NCBI GenBank assembly: GCA_964560215.1
Contig: CAZLKW010000001.1
Location: forward strand, 10,525-74,524
From: an uncultured Sediminibacterium sp.
Lineage (GTDB): Bacteria > Bacteroidota > Bacteroidia > Chitinophagales > Chitinophagaceae
Reading direction: 5' to 3'
DNA: 64,000 nt
Shown: positions 50,607 through 61,303 of the stretch, one piece after another
Layout: each line of letters begins with the position of its first letter
How positions within the stretch are numbered: position 1 is the first letter of the stretch
The notes under the pieces: model-generated
Databases searched by the model: none
What the model saw: only the letters and a program-made list of their open reading frames with translations
What the model was told of the DNA's origin: nothing
Program-made: the position numbers and the translations under genes

Positions 50607-50669
50607 TACAAACAAATCAACAATCAAGTTTAGCATCTTTCTGCAATTAAAAATTTGAGGTTTTAGGGG

Positions 50670-51401
50670 GCGGCTGCCTTTGATGTGAATGGGGGTGTCT
50701 TTGAACCATTGCTTGGAGATAAGGATGCAATCATTTCCGATTCCTTAAACCATGCTTCCATCATATATGGTGTGAGACTTACAAAGTCCATGAGGTATAG
50801 GTATGAACATAATTCTATGGAAGATCTAGAGACAAAATTAAAAAAGCAATTGCTGCAGGGGCGGTTCAAAAAATAATTGTTACCGATGGCGCATTCTCCG
50901 TGGATGGTACCATTGCGCAACTAGATAAAATTGTAGCATTAGCCGAAAAGTATGAAGCACTGGTGATGAGTGACGAGTGTCATACAACTGGTTTTATTGG
51001 AAAAACAGGAAGAGGTGTTCATGAATTAAAAGGCGTGATGGGTAAGGTGGATATCATTACGGGAACCTTAGGTAAAGCACTGGGTGGTGCATCTGGTGGT
51101 TTCACCTCTGGTAAAAAAGAAATCATTGAACTATTAAGACAACGCCAAGGCCTTATTTATTTTCAAACCACGTACTCATCCCATTATACCTATCATGTTA
51201 TATGATGCAGTTGTTTCACAAAATATGGCAGAGAAATTATTAGAAAAGGGAATTTATGTAATTGGCTTTTACTACCCTGTTGTACCAAAAGGCCAAGCTA
51301 GAATTCGTGTACAAATTTCTGCTGCACACAGTATTGCTCAATTAGACCAAGCAATTCAAGCATTTATTGAAGTAGGCAAGGAACTAGGAGTGATTAAGTA
51401 A
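50670..51401 (+). pseudogene. kbl: Glycine C-acetyltransferase pseudogene (5'-truncated, frameshifted, internal deletion)
   Basis: Fragments in several frames: [28 protein letters not shown] / [25 protein letters not shown] / RPYLFSN directly joined to [12 protein letters not shown]...[13 protein letters not shown]. Confidence 0.9.
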
Positions 51402-55233: not shown

Positions 55234-55743
55234 ATGACAAAGCCATTAAATACATGTATATGGTTTGACTGAAAATCAAAAGAGGCATTTTTATTTTACA
55301 AGGAAGTTTTTGGAGATGTTGAATTGATTTCCGAAAATCCCTTTGTTGTAAATTATAATTTATTTGGTCGACGCTTTATGCATTTAAATGGTGGTCCAGG
55401 ACATACAGGTGATTTAGATATTTGGATTAATAGTTCAGAAACGAATGCTGAAAAATTAGTACTTGCCATAAATGAATTTGGACTAGCAAGTTTAGGATTA
55501 ACAAAATCTGATTTTATGCAAGCCGGTTATGTTACACAAATAGGATACCCACCACTTAGAATTTATATACTGAATGCCATTGATGGAGTGAAATTTGAAG
55601 ACGCTTTCCCAAATAAATTACTTGTGGATGTAAATGGGATTGAAGTAAAATATATAGGTTTGAAAGAATTCATAGAGAACAAAACAGCTTCAGGCAGAAT
55701 TCAGGATATTGCTGATTTGAAAGAGATTAATGAATTGAAATAA
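55234..55743 (+). pseudogene. Chimeric relic: VOC/PhnB-like N-terminus (in-frame TGA) fused to a nucleotidyltransferase C-terminus
   Basis: MTKPLNTCIWFD*KSKEAF.FY...FMHLNGGP then HTGDLDIWIN...NKTASGRIQDIADL in one frame; TGA at 55270-55272. Confidence 0.8.
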
Positions 55744-55787
55744 TGAATAATTGTATTGAAGGCGTATAAATTATTGTATTTTTATGT

Positions 55788-57080
55788 ATGCTAGTTACAA
55801 TAAAAAAATATTTTTCTATAAAACAAGATATTGATTCATTTGATAATATTCATGAAACAATCATTCAAGGAATAAAATTCAAAGGGACAAATTTAATTGT
55901 ACTTGTATTTGCAATTTTTATAGCGTCATTAGGTTTAAATATTAATTCAACTGCAGTAATTATTGGTGCAATGTTAATATCGCCTTTGATGGGGCCAATT
56001 ATTGGAATTGGTTTCGGTGCGTCTACTTATAATCCGGTTCTTATAAAAGAGGCCATTAAAAATTATCTTTTTGCCACTTTAGTTAGTTTGTTGACTTCAA
56101 CTATTTATTTCTTAGTTAGTCCTATTGACGATGCACAATCTGAATTGTTAGCAAGAACTACTCCCAATATTTATGATGTTTTAATAGCATTGTTTGGCGG
56201 ATTTGCCGGAATTACCGCTATCACTAGTAAATTTAAAGGAAACATTTTACCGGGAGTTGCAATTGCAACAGCCCTGATGCCTCCTTTGTGTACAGCTGGA
56301 TATGGATTAGCAACCTTGCAATTAACGTACAGTTTAGGGGCGTTATATTTATATTTTATAAATACTGTATTTATCATTTTGTCCTCTTATTTGTATTTAA
56401 AATTTATCGACTATCCAATACAAGAAAATAAACAAAATAAAAATGTCATAAAAACTAATAGAATAATTTATTGGATTTCAATTATAACAATCATCCCAAG
56501 TATCTATTTAGGGTATGATTTGATAAATAAAAACCAATTCAATAGAAATGCAAATAAATATATTAGCACTGAATTTAATTTTTCAAATACCTTAGTTTTA
56601 AAGAAAGTAATTAAACCCAGTAAAAATACAATTCAACTATTTTTAGCTGGATATAAGCTAGATTCTAACGAGCTTATTGATTTGACAAATAAGAAAAATA
56701 AATATAATTTAGAAAATACTAAAATTGAAATAAATCAAGGTGCAACATTTGAAAAAAATAGTAATGACTTTAATGATAATCAACAAAATATATTAGAAAA
56801 AACAAATAACATTTTAAATAATATATTAGATAGTATAGCAAGAAAACAACAAAACCATCTTGAATTAACAAAAGAATTGAAATTCATTGACCCTAATATA
56901 GATACAGGATACATTATTAACAATACTTTATTTAATACAAATCAAACTTATCAGAATATTACAATTATTTTAGAGACAATCAAAGCAGATCGAAAAAGTA
57001 AAATTGATAGTGCAAAAATTGCCAATTGGTTAAAAGTTCGACTGCCTAAAGATTCTATCATAATTAAAATTATAAAATGA
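55788..57080 (+). CDS. DUF389 / TIGR00341 family membrane protein
   Basis: AVIIGAMLISPLMGPI, ELLARTTP, GVAIATALMPPL. Confidence 0.93.
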   Translation: MLVTIKKYFSIKQDIDSFDNIHETIIQGIKFKGTNLIVLVFAIFIASLGLNINSTAVIIGAMLISPLMGPIIGIGFGASTYNPVLIKEAIKNYLFATLVSLLTSTIYFLVSPIDDAQSELLARTTPNIYDVLIALFGGFAGITAITSKFKGNILPGVAIATALMPPLCTAGYGLATLQLTYSLGALYLYFINTVFIILSSYLYLKFIDYPIQENKQNKNVIKTNRIIYWISIITIIPSIYLGYDLINKNQFNRNANKYISTEFNFSNTLVLKKVIKPSKNTIQLFLAGYKLDSNELIDLTNKKNKYNLENTKIEINQGATFEKNSNDFNDNQQNILEKTNNILNNILDSIARKQQNHLELTKELKFIDPNIDTGYIINNTLFNTNQTYQNITIILETIKADRKSKIDSAKIANWLKVRLPKDSIIIKIIK

Positions 57081-58450
57081 TAAGTGTAATTATTCCGGCT
57101 TTAAATGAGGCTAAAACAATAAAGGAAGTGATTGATATATTAAATCAATCAGCCTTAGTTGATGAGATTATTGTAGTAGACGACAAGTCATTAGATGATA
57201 CTGTTGCTATCTCCTTAAAAGCAGGAGCAAAAGTTATTACTGGTACTAAATTAGGGAAAGGGGCATCTATGAAGGATGGCCTATTAATTGCCAAGAATGA
57301 AGTCATTATATTTTTAGATGCAGATATTACAACCTATCCCAAGGATATAGTTGAATTAATGACAGATCCAATTTTAAATGAAGAAATTGATTTTGTAAAA
57401 ACATATTTTACAAGACAAGCAGGAAGGGTAACTGAATTAGTAGCAAAACCACTTTTATCAATTTTATATCCAAGTTTCCCTGTTTTCATTCAACCTTTAA
57501 GCGGGATGATTGCAGGAAAAAAGTCATTATTTACTAAAATTGATTTTGAAGAAGGTTATGGAGTAGATATTGGTATATTAATTGATATGTACAAACTTGG
57601 GGCTAAAATTAAGGAAGTGAATATTGGCAATATTGAGAATCGAATGCAATCCTTGGAACAACTAGGAAAAATGTCTAAAGCAGTTGCATCTACAATTATT
57701 GACAAAGCTGCCAATTTTGGTAAAAAGAATTTAGAAGTACTAGAAAATATACAAGTAATTAGAGAACAAATGGAATTTGCAATTAATGAAAAGTCTAAAC
57801 AACTTTCTAAAATTGCCATTTTTGATATGGATAATACTTTACTAACGAAAAGTTTTATACATGCATGTTCTCAAAAATTTAATTTCCAATCGGAATTGCT
57901 TGATATAGTTAGTTCGCAACAAAATCCATTTATTCGAACAAAACAAATTGCTAAATTATTAAAAGGGAAGACAGTTAACGATCTAATTCAAGTTGCGGAG
58001 GAAATACCAATAACTACTAATGCAGAAAAGTTAATTTATCACTTGAGAGAAAGGGGTTATAAAATAGGCATCATAAGTGACAGTTACGATTATATTACTA
58101 ATTATTTTGTAAATAAATTAAGGTTAGACTTTTCTTTGGCTAACGAATTAGAATTTTCAAAAAGCATTGTTACTGGTGAAGTTAAAATACCTTCGTTTTT
58201 TCTTCCAAATTCTAAAAGCATTTGCAATCATGAAATTTGTAAATCTCATGCACTTGTTACTATTTGTAATGAATTAACTATAGATATTGAAAATACTATT
58301 GCAATTGGAGATGGTGAGAATGATATTTGTATGGTCAGAAAAGCTGGCATAGGTATTGCCTATTGCTCGTCAAATCAAACACTTAATTTAGTAGCTGATT
58401 TTATAATTAAAGAAAAAGACATGGGTTTAATAAATGATTTAATTAGTTAA
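57077..58450 (+). CDS. Bifunctional glucosyl-3-phosphoglycerate synthase-like glycosyltransferase plus HAD (SerB-like) phosphatase
   Basis: N-terminal IPALNE, GKG, LDAD, GRVTELVAKPLL, QPLSG, YGVDIGILID; C-terminal FDMDNTL, ISD, K, IGDGEND. Confidence 0.85.
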   Translation: MISVIIPALNEAKTIKEVIDILNQSALVDEIIVVDDKSLDDTVAISLKAGAKVITGTKLGKGASMKDGLLIAKNEVIIFLDADITTYPKDIVELMTDPILNEEIDFVKTYFTRQAGRVTELVAKPLLSILYPSFPVFIQPLSGMIAGKKSLFTKIDFEEGYGVDIGILIDMYKLGAKIKEVNIGNIENRMQSLEQLGKMSKAVASTIIDKAANFGKKNLEVLENIQVIREQMEFAINEKSKQLSKIAIFDMDNTLLTKSFIHACSQKFNFQSELLDIVSSQQNPFIRTKQIAKLLKGKTVNDLIQVAEEIPITTNAEKLIYHLRERGYKIGIISDSYDYITNYFVNKLRLDFSLANELEFSKSIVTGEVKIPSFFLPNSKSICNHEICKSHALVTICNELTIDIENTIAIGDGENDICMVRKAGIGIAYCSSNQTLNLVADFIIKEKDMGLINDLIS

Positions 58451-58485
58451 TTAAATCTGTAGGATTGTATAATGATATATAAGTT

Positions 58486-58637
58486 CTCCATCATCTTTTC
58501 CCTTTTTAAAACACAAAACTTGGTCATAATTTACCCCAAAAAAACGGGTCTACGCTTTTATCAGTATAAATTCTTGATAATGATACCTTTCGGCTGTGGG
58601 CCCACCAGGGTAGATCCTGGGACCCCCTGATTATGAG
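58486..58637. repeat. Imperfect direct repeat of 61102-61271 (tRNA 3' half plus about 110 bp of downstream arm)
   Basis: Shared blocks ACACAAAAC, GGGTCTA, CTTGATAATG, CCTTTCGGCTGTGGGCCCACCAGGG, GATCCTGGGACCCCCTGATTATGAG. Confidence 0.95.
58597..58637 (-). repeat. 3' fragment of tRNA-Ile2(CAT), attR-like site
   Basis: Matches tRNA 61230-61271 from discriminator to anticodon loop with a small T-loop lesion; similarity stops in the anticodon loop. Confidence 0.9.
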
Positions 58638-58719
58638 GGTTCCTAGTGGTATTCCATACCTTTTCATTTATTGATAATCAATAGGATACAAGATTGAAAT
58701 AGATTTATATTTCTCATAT

Positions 58720-58777
58720 TTCACCTGTTTTAGCCAATTTTTTGTGAAAACCTGGCCGTGAACCTGGCCGGAATTTA
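58720..58777. repeat. Arm-type repeat module (TTCACCTGTTTT...AACCTGGCC x2)
   Basis: AACCTGGCC at 58749-58757 and 58761-58769; same module at 61107-61164. Confidence 0.8.
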
Positions 58778-58939
58778 ATGAGTTTTAGATCATCAATATT
58801 GAAGTTTATAATTTGCAATGAGATCATGTATTCCCTTTCATGGATAGAATCTAGGTAGACATTTGTATGGCATTGAAACATGTTATTAGTACTCCTGGTT
58901 GGTGATGATTGAAACATCTAACTGCACCTGAGTTTATTG

Positions 58940-58947
58940 TATATTTG
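58940..58947 (+). promoter_or_regulatory. Bacteroidota -7 promoter element
   Basis: TATATTTG matches TAnnTTTG, 36 nt upstream of the first cargo gene. Confidence 0.55.
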
Positions 58948-58983
58948 TAAGTTATAAACTTTCACTTTTTAATTTGTTGCCCA

Positions 58984-59667
58984 ATGATGAAGAATATGTT
59001 TTATTTATTAGGTGTTCTGTTGTCTTTGGATGGTTATACTCAAACAGGTATTGGAACTACTTCACCTGTTAATAAGTTTCAAGTTGAAACTACCGCAGCA
59101 GCTCCTCTTACTTCGGGATCTGGTTTCAATGGAAACCTAAGATTAGGCGCTACTGGAGCAAATCAAGTTTTAGATTTTGGACTAGGTACAACTTTTGGAT
59201 GGTTACAAGCAAGACATAAAACTATTTATAGTGAAAATTATTTTTTAGTATTAAATCCTAATGGCGGAAATGTGGGGATTAATAAATCAAATCCAGCAAA
59301 AGCACTAGATGTCACGGGTGATATTGCAGTAAGCGGAGCACTAACCGGTGGCAATGTAGTCGCTTCAAAATTAAGCGGTTTTGTTTCTAATATTACATCC
59401 GTATCAACAGACAGGTCTATTGCAGTAACAGACAATGGCACTATTTTACGTTCGACAGCTACATCGGGTATAACGATAACTTTACCAGCTTCTGGTATCC
59501 CAGAGGGTTTTAATTGTATGGTATTACAAAGTGATGTTGGACAAATTACATTTTCAGGGACGTTTTATAATAGAAATGGTTTTAATAAAACTGCAGGCCG
59601 CTATTCAATTGTAACTATTCTTTATGCAGGAGGGATATACATTGTTTCAGGAGAAATGAGTAATTAA
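58984..59667 (+). CDS. Secreted phage-tail-fibre-like protein
   Basis: Signal peptide then QTGIGTTSP; GWLQA..LVLNPNGGNVGI..P...LDVTG; C-terminal ITLP..GFNC.VLQ...GQITF...YIVSGEM. Confidence 0.65.
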   Translation: MMKNMFYLLGVLLSLDGYTQTGIGTTSPVNKFQVETTAAAPLTSGSGFNGNLRLGATGANQVLDFGLGTTFGWLQARHKTIYSENYFLVLNPNGGNVGINKSNPAKALDVTGDIAVSGALTGGNVVASKLSGFVSNITSVSTDRSIAVTDNGTILRSTATSGITITLPASGIPEGFNCMVLQSDVGQITFSGTFYNRNGFNKTAGRYSIVTILYAGGIYIVSGEMSN

Positions 59668-59668
59668 G

Positions 59669-61030
59669 ATGAAAATATTACTACTATTTATATTTGTCCT
59701 TTTTAATTTAAATTCTAACAGTCAAATCCTACCTGTACAATATTCTGTATATGAATCAAATAGAGGTAAAGGTAATGGGAAATTATATTATAAATTATAC
59801 AGCGTATCGACAAGTAGTGTATTTCCTGCAAGTTCTGCCGATTACGACACTTATCTCAGTACCTATGGTACTTTCAGGATAGGTGGTACATTTAATGTAT
59901 TAACGAATAGTGGCACCATTAACAGCTCAACGAGTAATTCAACAAATACAATAAACTTTAATTCCTCTGCACAATTTTTAAATTCAATTAATAACCAAAG
60001 TCCGTATGTGGGGTATGATGGGAATTATTTTTCAGTTATTGTATCTGGATATTTCATTCCAAAACAGACAGGTACGTATACTTTTTCTGTAGAAGGGGAC
60101 GATGCTGTTGATTTATTTATTAATAATGTAAATGTGGCAAATCATTATGGTGGACATGGTGCTTCTGCAATAGGTACGCACACAGGAACTATCAATTTAA
60201 TTGCTGGTAAAAAGTATACTTTAAGAGGCAGATTTCAAGAGCACGCTGGTGGTGAGGTTTTTACATTATTTTGGAAGAAACCTTCAGAATCAAATGGGAC
60301 TGTTTGGTTTCAGGATTGGGAGGAATTATCTTCAAATGAAGTTGTACCTTCTGGTTTAGTTTATTCATTTGACCCAGGAAATTTTTATAGCTATTCAAAA
60401 ATAGGTACTGCAAATGCAACCTATAATGATTTAAATAACAACGTTTCAGGTACTTTATTGGATAACACCACATTTTCTTCTGACAATGGCAATGTTTTGG
60501 TTTTTGATACTGACAAGGATGCGGTTGATTTTGGCACAAATATTCCAAATTTTCCAACGTCTGATATAAGTGTATTTCTATGGATTAATGCAACTTCACT
60601 CAGAAATGGCTGGAATATTTTTTTTACAAAATGGTTTTCTACTACTGCAGGAGATGGAGGCGTGTCCGATTTTCATTATTCAATTAAAACTAATGGCGCG
60701 CAAAATTTTCAAAATTTATACACGACCAATGCTAGTGATATGTTTGGGTCAACTCCCATTTTAACTTCTACATGGTATCATGTAGGTTTTACAATCTCTA
60801 GTGGAAATATGCAAATGTATCTTAATGGACAACCAGATGGTTCTCCGAGGCCTGCAAGTAGAACCAATCAACCTTCTGCTAGATTAATTTTGGGTGATTC
60901 AAGGAGTAATGGTTTAGTTACATTTAATGGGAAAATCGGCACTATTTCTGTTTATAATAGGGCGATAAATAGAGAAGAAGTTTTTCAGAATTTCAATATC
61001 TCTAAACACAGATACGGTTTTACAAATTAA
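59669..61030 (+). CDS. Secreted PA14 plus LamG-like jellyroll domain protein
   Basis: Signal peptide; PA14 (SGYFIPKQTGTYTFSVEGDD, FQEHAGG); LamG (WYHVGFT, MYLNG, FNGKI..ISVYNRAI..EV.QNFN..K.RYG). Confidence 0.85.
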   Translation: MKILLLFIFVLFNLNSNSQILPVQYSVYESNRGKGNGKLYYKLYSVSTSSVFPASSADYDTYLSTYGTFRIGGTFNVLTNSGTINSSTSNSTNTINFNSSAQFLNSINNQSPYVGYDGNYFSVIVSGYFIPKQTGTYTFSVEGDDAVDLFINNVNVANHYGGHGASAIGTHTGTINLIAGKKYTLRGRFQEHAGGEVFTLFWKKPSESNGTVWFQDWEELSSNEVVPSGLVYSFDPGNFYSYSKIGTANATYNDLNNNVSGTLLDNTTFSSDNGNVLVFDTDKDAVDFGTNIPNFPTSDISVFLWINATSLRNGWNIFFTKWFSTTAGDGGVSDFHYSIKTNGAQNFQNLYTTNASDMFGSTPILTSTWYHVGFTISSGNMQMYLNGQPDGSPRPASRTNQPSARLILGDSRSNGLVTFNGKIGTISVYNRAINREEVFQNFNISKHRYGFTN

Positions 61031-61106
61031 AAGAGTTACAATCGAAATTATCAGTGATTTTAATGTCATATAATCAGGTTCCAACAATTCCACTCCTTCA
61101 CCTCCA

Positions 61107-61164
61107 TTCACCCCTGTTTTCCCTCAAAGAACACAAAACCTGGCCCAAACCTGGCCAGAACTTA
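61107..61164. repeat. Arm-type repeat module (TTCACCCCTGTTTT...AACCTGGCC x2)
   Basis: AACCTGGCC at 61137-61145 and 61148-61156. Confidence 0.8.
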
Positions 61165-61229
61165 CCACAAACAAAAAGGGTCTATGCATTTTTACAGCAT
61201 AAACCCTTGATAATGTTGCCTTTCGGCTG

Positions 61230-61303
61230 TGGGCCCACCAGGGCATGATCCTGGGACCCCCTGATTATGAGTCAGGTGCTCTAACCAACTGAGCTATAGG
61301 CCC
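61230..61303 (-). tRNA. tRNA with CAT anticodon, most likely tRNA-Ile2 (lysidine)
   Basis: GGGCCTATAGCTCAGTTGGTTAGAGCACCTGACTCATAATCAGGGGGTCCCAGGATCATGCCCTGGTGGGCCCA; full cloverleaf with Ile-type acceptor; CCA not encoded. Confidence 0.9.

What the first reader, a model, noticed from the sequence alone, without database searches (positions are those of the whole stretch)
58597..61271. Integrase-free 2.63-kb cassette at tRNA-Ile2 with arm-like repeats at both ends
Seen: intact tRNA(CAT) at one end and a 3' remnant breaking in the anticodon loop at the other, 2633 bp apart. Inside each end is the same module TTCACC..TGTTTT-N-AAAACCTGGCC-N2/3-AACCTGGCC.GAA.TTA (58720-58777, 61107-61164) in direct orientation, plus TTGATAAT words near the cores. 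Only two cargo genes and no recombinase gene are present. Known: tyrosine integrases cross over in tRNA anticodon loops and use paired arm sites flanking the core. Inference: a minimal non-autonomous cassette mobilised in trans that swaps surface-protein modules, integron-like in effect but using a tRNA att site. This is the best candidate for an undescribed system here.
Basis: partly seen in the sequence, partly recalled or inferred. Interest (0 to 1): 0.8.

Follow-up and report, generated by a model that had tools for sequence, protein, structure and literature searches.

The report
Integrase-free cassettes, cognate helper integrase identified
A 2.6-kb two-gene insert at a tRNA gene is one of many different recombinase-free gene packets in related Bacteroidota genomes that share the same attachment-site ends, and a rare integrase found beside those same ends likely inserts and excises them, a tidy variant of a known way of building genomic islands.

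Summary
Observation confirmed. The unit (58638-61271, 2634 bp) lies between an intact tRNA-Ile2(CAT) and a 3' remnant, and homology breaks in the anticodon loop. The two end modules are different arms, attL-type and attR-type, that share a 2x9-bp repeat. A decayed third arm (58497-58533) marks an older element. The attR arm occurs in at least 66 of 281 genus genomes. Of 32 fully bounded units (0.5-13 kb), 29 have no integrase hit, and cargo ranges from surface proteins to efflux operons. A 419-aa tyrosine integrase (IntA, with an excisionase-like gene) is found in only 4 of 281 genomes, in each case upstream of this attR. A 65% homolog ends 12 bp from the arm. A 7.1-kb cassette is 98.5% identical between hosts whose hflX genes are 75% identical. 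Best reading: CIME-like cassettes moved by IntA, in cis or in trans. Movement of this particular unit is not shown: no circle was seen, and a relative has it at about core-gene identity. The class is known (CIMEs, additive islands), and this scan already noted similar arrays on other DNA.

The parts
61229..61303 (-). Intact tRNA(CAT), read as tRNA-Ile2; the target gene, and the host half plus core of attL
   Evidence: Of the three CAT tRNAs of G000, this one has C4:G69 and C5:G68 (TilS determinants, recalled); the others look like initiator and elongator Met (inference)
61265..61271 (-). Crossover heptamer CTCATAA (anticodon loop) at attL
   Evidence: in other genera the same arm joins the host's own tRNA 3' half at this heptamer
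61176..61212 (-). IHF-consensus word overlapping an intrinsic-terminator hairpin behind the tRNA
   Evidence: motif at 61212; z -4.0 for 61160-61228; 54 of 125 distinct post-core segments carry the exact motif, with variable central 4 bases
61137..61156 (-). attL arm: two 9-bp GGCCAGGTT repeats, 2-bp spacer; predicted arm-type integrase sites
61083..61136 (-). Conserved 54-bp attL body inside the arm
   Evidence: profile from 69 distinct copies; 48.8 bits, the only hit in G000
59669..61030 (+). Cargo 2: 453-aa protein with PA14 and Laminin_G_3 domains and a hydrophobic N-terminus; likely a secreted or surface carbohydrate-binding protein
   Evidence: 88% aa identity to the G289 copy, 44-56% to genes in non-att surface-protein clusters
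58984..59667 (+). Cargo 1: 227-aa protein with no Pfam or NCBIfam family; paralogs lie in chromosomal surface-protein clusters, including G000:C4
   Evidence: ESM Atlas look-alikes are unnamed viral clusters at 0.91, a lead only
58749..58769 (-). attR arm: two 9-bp GGCCAGGTT repeats, 3-bp spacer
58638..58748 (-). Conserved 111-bp attR (P-arm) body, including the palindrome ATTGATAATCAAT at 58670-58682
   Evidence: 103.9 bits, the only hit in G000; 86-90% identical over 140 bp to five attR copies linked to IntA or its C-terminal part
58595..58637 (-). tRNA 3' remnant starting at the heptamer (58631-58637), with a mutated T-loop; core of attR
58497..58594 (-). Decayed terminator, IHF word (58579) and degenerate attL-type arm of an older element whose own attR is missing from the assembly
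   Evidence: weaker fold, z -1.5; no second attR hit in G000
55788..58450 (+). DUF389 gene and GT2-HAD fusion gene: probable cargo of the older, now unbounded element; also next to the cassette in G289

Best explanation
The 2634-bp unit is an integrase-free cassette bounded by a full attL-type and a full attR-type site at tRNA-Ile2, and it was likely inserted, and could likely be excised, by a 419-aa tyrosine integrase (IntA) of a rare larger element that carries the same attR. SHOWN: the ends are shared by many units with unrelated cargo; IntA and an excisionase-like HTH_17 gene lie upstream of, and point at, the same attR; the arm joins tRNA 3' halves at the anticodon-loop heptamer; some cassettes are near-identical between distant hosts; one cassette occupies different array positions. 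INFERRED: IntA binds the GGCCARGTT repeat pairs as arm sites, with an IHF/HU-like host factor on the WATCAAnnnnTTR words, and crosses over in CTCATAA. Each new element enters at the intact tRNA and pushes older ones downstream. Cassettes arise when IntA elements lose their integration module, or when deletion fuses an element with older neighbours. They move when an IntA element is in the same cell: in cis (excision through the outer attR carries the cassette along, and later excision of the helper alone leaves the cassette at the tRNA) or in trans. Deletions between the co-oriented arm repeats fuse or empty cassettes. The vehicle between cells is unknown. The unit in this window is probably an old resident with sites still close to consensus.
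For: attR arm in at least 66 of 281 genus genomes (hand count of listed rows), against close IntA (74-86% to the query) in 4 of 281. In all 4, IntA lies upstream of the arm on the same contig and strand. Also: L165 (full IntA) and L156 (C-terminal part) from the metagenome scan; L272, a 65% homolog whose stop is 12 bp from the arm; L283, a 59-61% C-terminal piece about 55 bp from a divergent arm. A sister element in G264 (35% identical integrase plus xis) ends 4 bp from its own repeat pair CGCCGGGT and uses the same heptamer. Other integrase families at this tRNA have other repeat words (read by eye). 29 of 32 bounded units have no integrase hit and none has IntA. Cross-host identity: L174 vs G009, 98.5% over 7109 bp from tRNA to remnant end, against hflX at 74.7%; G019 vs G007, 94.1% over 6.5 kb against 65-69% control. 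What follows the cassette in L174 matches what follows the intact tRNA in G027 (93%, core 77%). One cassette follows the intact tRNA in G191 but an internal remnant in G014 and G212, at 98% identity. In three genomes of other genera the arm is joined at CTCATAA to differing tRNA 3' halves. The closest relative seen (G293, 95% over hflX-tRNA) has a different element at the site.
Against: No recombination, binding or circle was shown. G000 (84% complete) has no IntA or xis hit. G289 has the same cargo at 88% with core genes at 84-85%, the same downstream neighbours and a decayed attR, which fits vertical inheritance of this unit. No IntA element was seen whole, from attL to attR, on one contig; in G226 and G267 the matching attL is on another contig. 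Three IntA loci (L165, L156, L283) and the first sightings in G273 and G226 came from searching for the arm, so only searches are unbiased. In one search, two full-length copies (L266, L269) have no arm before their contig ends, and four fragments (L270, L273, L274, L275) have no full attR downstream. The first catalytic Arg position reads Asn in all 28 aligned IntA sequences (motif placed by eye from recalled XerD). Arm conservation may reflect recent descent rather than selection; the arm tree is unresolved.
Confidence: 0.72

Rival explanations
1. The units are dead deletion relics of IntA elements. They are inherited vertically or swapped by RecA-type recombination through the shared tRNA halves and arms, and the integrase no longer acts on them.
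For: This unit is shared with G289 at about core identity and is decaying there. Partial arms, cores lost by deletion, fused junctions (9 of 63 attL bodies follow cargo directly) and emptied junctions (2 of 83 attR bodies; a third flag was false) are common. One 8.4-kb unit keeps a gene 96% identical to one inside an IntA element. The window's arm has a longer terminal branch (0.067) than IntA-linked arms (0.012-0.037; weak tree).
Against: Near-identical att-to-att blocks in hosts 65-75% alike. The arm joins different hosts' tRNA halves at the heptamer. 61 of 88 full attR bodies still abut a core. IntA is intact and diverse in metagenomes (24 clusters of full query coverage at 77-99%).
Confidence: 0.18
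2. An integron-like capture system: the short gap between the IntA stop codon and the attR arm is an entry point where new genes are actively inserted, and loaded ends are then released as cassettes.
For: The gap is 12 bp in L272 and 4 bp in the G264 sister element. It holds different cargo of 631, 941, 1189, 1615 and 2339 bp in five IntA loci and about 11 kb in G267. In 14 of 61 cases an ORF ends within 25 bp of the attR arm region.
Against: No shared sequence follows the IntA stop and there are no attC-like sites. Accretion followed by deletion of an internal junction gives the same layout, and tight packing is expected in roughly 2-Mb genomes (inference).
Confidence: 0.08
3. The repeats are an assembly artefact or chance.
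For: G000 is a fragmented assembly (116 contigs).
Against: One contig from another study (run X2) covers 55720-61124 with 37 differences. G289 has the same block. The motif counts exclude chance.
Confidence: 0.02

Closest known systems
CIMEs (cis-mobilizable elements) and tandem accretion, as in ICESt1/ICESt3-related elements; review PMC5704250 (passages seen, section 2.3)
   Same: Defined there as elements that lost integration and transfer genes but kept attL and attR. They sit in tandem with incoming elements at one gene end, and transfer of CIME-ICE tandems was observed.
   Different: Here the integrase-free forms outnumber helper-bearing genomes about 16 to 1 (at least 66 vs 4 of 281), carry very varied cargo and cross species. 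The helper shows a phage-type replication initiator and methylases, with no relaxase, mating-pore or capsid hit among the proteins tested.
Additive flexible genomic islands at tRNAs, Alteromonas (PMC4898812, passages seen)
   Same: [quoted passage not shown]
   Different: That paper has no occurrence of 'integrase' or 'att site' in its main text. Here the arm sequences and a candidate enzyme are identified.
Tycheposons and cryptic integrative elements of Prochlorococcus (bioRxiv 10.1101/2020.12.28.424599, passages seen)
   Same: Tyrosine-integrase elements at tRNAs in streamlined aquatic genomes; new elements push older ones into the island; the helper here also has int, xis and a replication gene.
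   Different: Those elements are integrase-carrying by definition, and their remnants are described as lacking clear boundaries. These units have full ends and no integrase.
Bacteroidota tyrosine-integrase elements NBU1/NBU2 and CTnDOT (PMC5704250 table; PMC2817482 passages)
   Same: [quoted passage not shown] IntA has Phage_int_SAM_5 plus a weak PF00589 match.
   Different: NBUs encode their own integrase and relaxase. IntA was not compared with IntN1 or IntDOT sequences and has no PDB sequence hit.
Integron cassettes and CALINs (PMC11389934, passages seen)
   Same: Integrase-free gene units in arrays, which a recombinase encoded elsewhere can mobilise.
   Different: No attC hairpin sites or IntI were seen. 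The sites are long, two-armed, lambda-type att sites centred on a tRNA anticodon loop.

Membership tests
CIME | Retains attL and attR | tested here: met
   Both profile hits plus both cores
CIME | Lacks its own integration and transfer genes | tested here: met
   Two cargo ORFs only
CIME | Related to an autonomous element with the same att sites | tested here: met
   IntA upstream of the same attR in 4 of 4 genus genomes that have it; 12-bp adjacency in L272
CIME | Found in tandem with other elements at the same site | tested here: met
   Older attL at 58497-58594; arrays of 2-3 units in G098, G019 and L179
CIME | Excised or transferred in cis by the helper's integrase | not testable with these tools
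   Needs an excision assay; only contigs were available
CIME | Helper is an ICE or IME (conjugative transfer) | tested here: inconclusive
   No relaxase or mating-pore hit among the helper-region proteins sent to Pfam and PHROGs; no helper is complete on one contig
Integron cassette / CALIN | attC hairpin sites processed by IntI | tested here: not met
   Ends are direct-repeat arms around a tRNA core; the linked enzyme has a SAM_5 domain. No attC model was run.
Tycheposon | Encodes its own site-specific integrase | tested here: not met
   None in this unit; 29 of 32 bounded units have no hit
Additive flexible genomic island | tRNA hotspot with variable cassettes, partial tRNA repeats and content disconnected from core similarity | tested here: met
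Prophage or phage satellite | Capsid, terminase or packaging genes | tested here: not met
   None in the unit. Cargo 2 matches a virion-protein PHROG only in its LamG part. No such hit among 25 helper-region proteins. No IntA relative in viral contigs.

The most novel reading that the evidence does not exclude
A dedicated helper-and-cassette system of small-genome freshwater Bacteroidota. A rare, non-conjugative, non-phage IntA element loads foreign genes into the gap between its own stop codon and attR. It releases them as minimal att-flanked cassettes kept functional by selection, and shuffles, fuses and empties them across species and genera: an integron-like platform built on a lambda-type tRNA att site.
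Probability: 0.2. Interest if true: 0.78.

Novelty: new variant of a known kind. Interest (0 to 1): 0.52.

Why it matters
Additive tRNA islands are often described without an enzyme. Here the sites, a candidate integrase-excisionase pair, near-identical cassettes in distant hosts and intermediate junctions are all in hand. This makes it directly testable how small-genome aquatic Bacteroidota gain and drop gene packets while rarely carrying an integrase. If IntA works on these sites, it would also be a site-specific integration tool for this group.

Tried and rejected
Viral scans: the arm-repeat pattern gave 12 loci; the 9 I inspected showed no match to this tRNA core and no clear link to these ends. 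The arm-body pattern gave 0. IntA, as a single protein and as an alignment, gave 0 relatives. The single-protein scan of genome contigs gave 0; the alignment scan gave 11 loci, five of which repeat loci. PF00589 over 121 genus genomes listed mostly XerC/D-sized hits and did not locate the helper; IntA scores near or below that cut-off. A 426-aa integrase beside an arm in G294 (L124) was dropped as helper: an emptied junction lies between them and it is under 45% identical to IntA. Reads: 8 of 21 listed runs were laid, all contigs. No circle (back-joint) was seen. A joint 58523-61190 in X3 and X4 (34 letters on the short side, inside the repeat) and 58705-61241 in X9 cannot be told from other strains' att copies. 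X11 covers both flanks but not the cargo, and X9 and X10 cover cargo but little or none of the left flank; these are uncovered parts, not evidence. The arm tree was unresolved. No PDB sequence relative of IntA. No structure or complex prediction was run. An early note calling the G009 cassette glycosyltransferases was wrong; it is an efflux operon. Literature: 7 searches. One search (Sediminibacterium + genomic island + tRNA + integrase; the genus name is my guess) gave 0 papers. Supplements were not read, and subscription papers (such as the primary CIME papers) were not available.
Full report
Setting. The window is G000:C1:10525-74524 in a 1.84-Mb, 84%-complete assembly. Its genus holds 281 searchable genomes. 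Record titles of related contigs say Bacteroidetes or Chitinophagaceae. A more precise genus name would be my guess.

Observation. Read in the direction of the tRNA (minus strand), the order is: intact tRNA(CAT) 61303-61229; an IHF-consensus word overlapping a terminator hairpin; repeat pair (2-bp spacer); 54-bp conserved body; two cargo genes on the opposite strand; repeat pair (3-bp spacer); 111-bp conserved body; CTCATAA and the tRNA 3' half (58637-58595); a decayed terminator, IHF word and degenerate repeat (58594-58497); then GT2-HAD and DUF389 genes. This is the layout expected of attL (B-O-P'), cargo, attR (P-O-B'), where B' carries the attL arm of an older element. That older element has no attR left in the assembly. 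A contig from another study reproduces 55720-61124 with 37 differences.

A family of cassettes. The attR arm is matched in at least 66 of 281 genus genomes. This is a hand count of listed rows covering the arm at E <= 2.4e-16; only two candidates per genome were scored and 134 rows were not shown. About three quarters of these genomes are 2.5 Mb or smaller. The arm is in 4 of 300 genomes drawn across the family, and the metagenome scan gave 34 loci. In the loci I fetched (chosen because they had hits; three overlapping loci dropped) there were 88 full attR bodies, 61 abutting a core and 32 units bounded by a core on both sides. Sizes were 516-13,326 bp (median about 2.7 kb); 17 had the attL body as well, and about 4 were near-duplicates. 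None encodes IntA. Pfam on 75 cargo ORFs from 26 of the units shows many FG-GAP and other surface proteins, but also a TetR-TolC-HlyD-ABC efflux operon, phytase with a TonB receptor, amylases, two-component pairs, dehydrogenases and Schlafen/MazG/HNH genes. The 140 bp before the core are 87% identical (median) among 54 distinct copies, while a control stretch is 70-80% identical between G000 and four of five carrier genomes and barely aligns in the fifth. The exact WATCAAnnnnTTR word follows 54 of 125 distinct cores (87 with one mismatch), against 0.6% of random 45-mers, and its central four bases differ between terminator types (the copies are not independent; consensus recalled). G000 has one HU/IHF-family gene.

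The helper. A 419-aa protein with Phage_int_SAM_5 and a weak PF00589 match (IntA) was first seen in three arm-bearing loci. An independent search of all 281 genomes found close copies in four (G267, G273, G226, G001, plus one stray fragment in G226). Each lies upstream of, and points toward, this attR on the same contig. An HTH_17/excisionase-family ORF precedes it in G267, and a similar frame is visible in L165. The G267 region also encodes two DNA methylases, an AAA protein and a phage-type replication initiator; no capsid, terminase or relaxase hit was seen among the proteins tested. A scan of all genome contigs added L272, where a 65% homolog stops 12 bp before the same arm and the core resembles a tRNA-Asn 3' half. 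Two other full copies end their contigs without an arm, and four fragments lack a downstream attR. A complete 5.3-kb sister element in G264 has xis, a 35% identical integrase, its own repeat pair CGCCGGGT at both ends and the same crossover heptamer. Three further integrase families at this tRNA have other repeat words (by eye). Arm word and integrase family therefore vary together, which is the main ground for calling the repeats arm-type sites of IntA. Binding is inferred. IntA is intact in many metagenome clusters, and distant members carry Arm-DNA-bind_5. Lys286, Arg369, His392 and Tyr402 are invariant; the first catalytic Arg position appears to be Asn (placed by eye from a recalled motif), so activity needs a test. 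G000 itself has no IntA.

Evidence of movement. A 7.1-kb efflux cassette is 98.5% identical from the tRNA to the end of the remnant between L174 (93% identical to G000 over hflX-tRNA) and G009, whose hflX genes are 74.7% identical. A second efflux cassette is 94% identical between G019 and G007 against 65-69% control. Behind the L174 cassette lies what follows the intact tRNA in G027, the pattern of a new insertion pushing an older one down. A phytase cassette follows the intact tRNA in G191 but an internal remnant in G014 and G212, at 98% identity. In three genomes of other genera the arm is joined at CTCATAA to differing tRNA 3' halves; a fourth (G589) has lost the core. This favours site-specific crossover over recombination through a shared 43-bp repeat. 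Fused junctions (9 of 63 attL bodies directly behind cargo, several with attR-type left context) and emptied ones (2 of 83) show that the co-oriented arm repeats also recombine with one another, probably by short-repeat deletion.

This unit. Only G289 of the other 280 genomes has the full cargo (89%). There it follows a fused junction, its attR has decayed and lost the core, and the same GT2-HAD and DUF389 genes follow. Cassette identity (88%) is close to core identity (84-85%), so recent movement of this unit is not shown. Homologs at 44-56% lie in ordinary chromosomal surface-protein clusters, with cargo-1 paralogs in G000:C4 too, a plausible source of the cargo. G293, 95% identical over hflX-tRNA, has another element at the site. 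No circle was seen in 8 contig-only runs.

Comparison. PMC5704250 (passages) defines CIMEs and tandem accretion. PMC4898812 (passages) describes additive tRNA islands with near-identical cassettes across species. The tycheposon preprint (passages) describes stacking at tRNAs by integrase-carrying elements. PMC11389934 (passages) lists CALINs as integrase-dependent hitchers. PMC2817482 (passages) gives the arm-site and IHF background for a Bacteroides integrase. Other papers were seen only as search listings. Seven searches showed no paper on this family; supplements and subscription papers were not seen. The unit meets the structural CIME criteria, the functional one is untested, and it fails the integron and tycheposon criteria. 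Earlier notes of this scan report similar integrase-free tRNA arrays in other taxa (unchecked AI notes) and none for relatives of this stretch.

Verdict. A real feature and a new variant of a known kind. Its value lies in the named helper, the co-varying arms and the abundance of helper-free units, which make the mechanism testable. Interest 0.52.

Noticed in passing
L035, L122, L145, L264 and many other loci: A large paralog family of 240-270 aa proteins beginning MEVHH(P/H) occurs in tandem runs of up to five in this island, often as the first gene after an attL body. The four members sent to Pfam had no hit at 1e-6.
   Followed up: partly
window 61229-61303: The tRNA-Ile2 of this genus has a non-canonical T-loop (ATCATGC in place of TTCRAAT-like). 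Some remnants carry a canonical loop, which may mark passage through other hosts (L126, L156, L285).
   Followed up: no
L186:3936-14602; L168; L120; L194: At least four other tyrosine-integrase families use the same tRNA, each with its own repeat word; G264 stacks several of them.
   Followed up: partly
L046:1764-7663: G017 has a 5.9-kb unit with a related arm pair (CGCCAAGTT) at both ends and no hit to the integrase profile: probably a CIME-like unit of a sister family.
   Followed up: no
window 50663-51401: A gene that looks like an aminotransferase of the glycine C-acetyltransferase type (recalled) is split into three short ORFs, by frameshifts or assembly error.
   Followed up: no
L228 (G000:C4:34000-50000): A chromosomal cluster with a 2060-aa ORF followed by two paralogs of cargo 1; similar clusters with 1300-2600 aa ORFs occur in G215, G144, G264 and G015.
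   Followed up: partly
L100, L103, L105 (viral contigs): Phage contigs with no link seen to this element carry GGCCAGGTTTTGGGCCAGGTTTT-like pairs twice, 3-4 kb apart, between genes; perhaps regulatory sites.
   Followed up: no
L054:1178-1575: G030 has two extra copies of the tRNA 5' part just upstream of the intact tRNA-Ile2.
   Followed up: no
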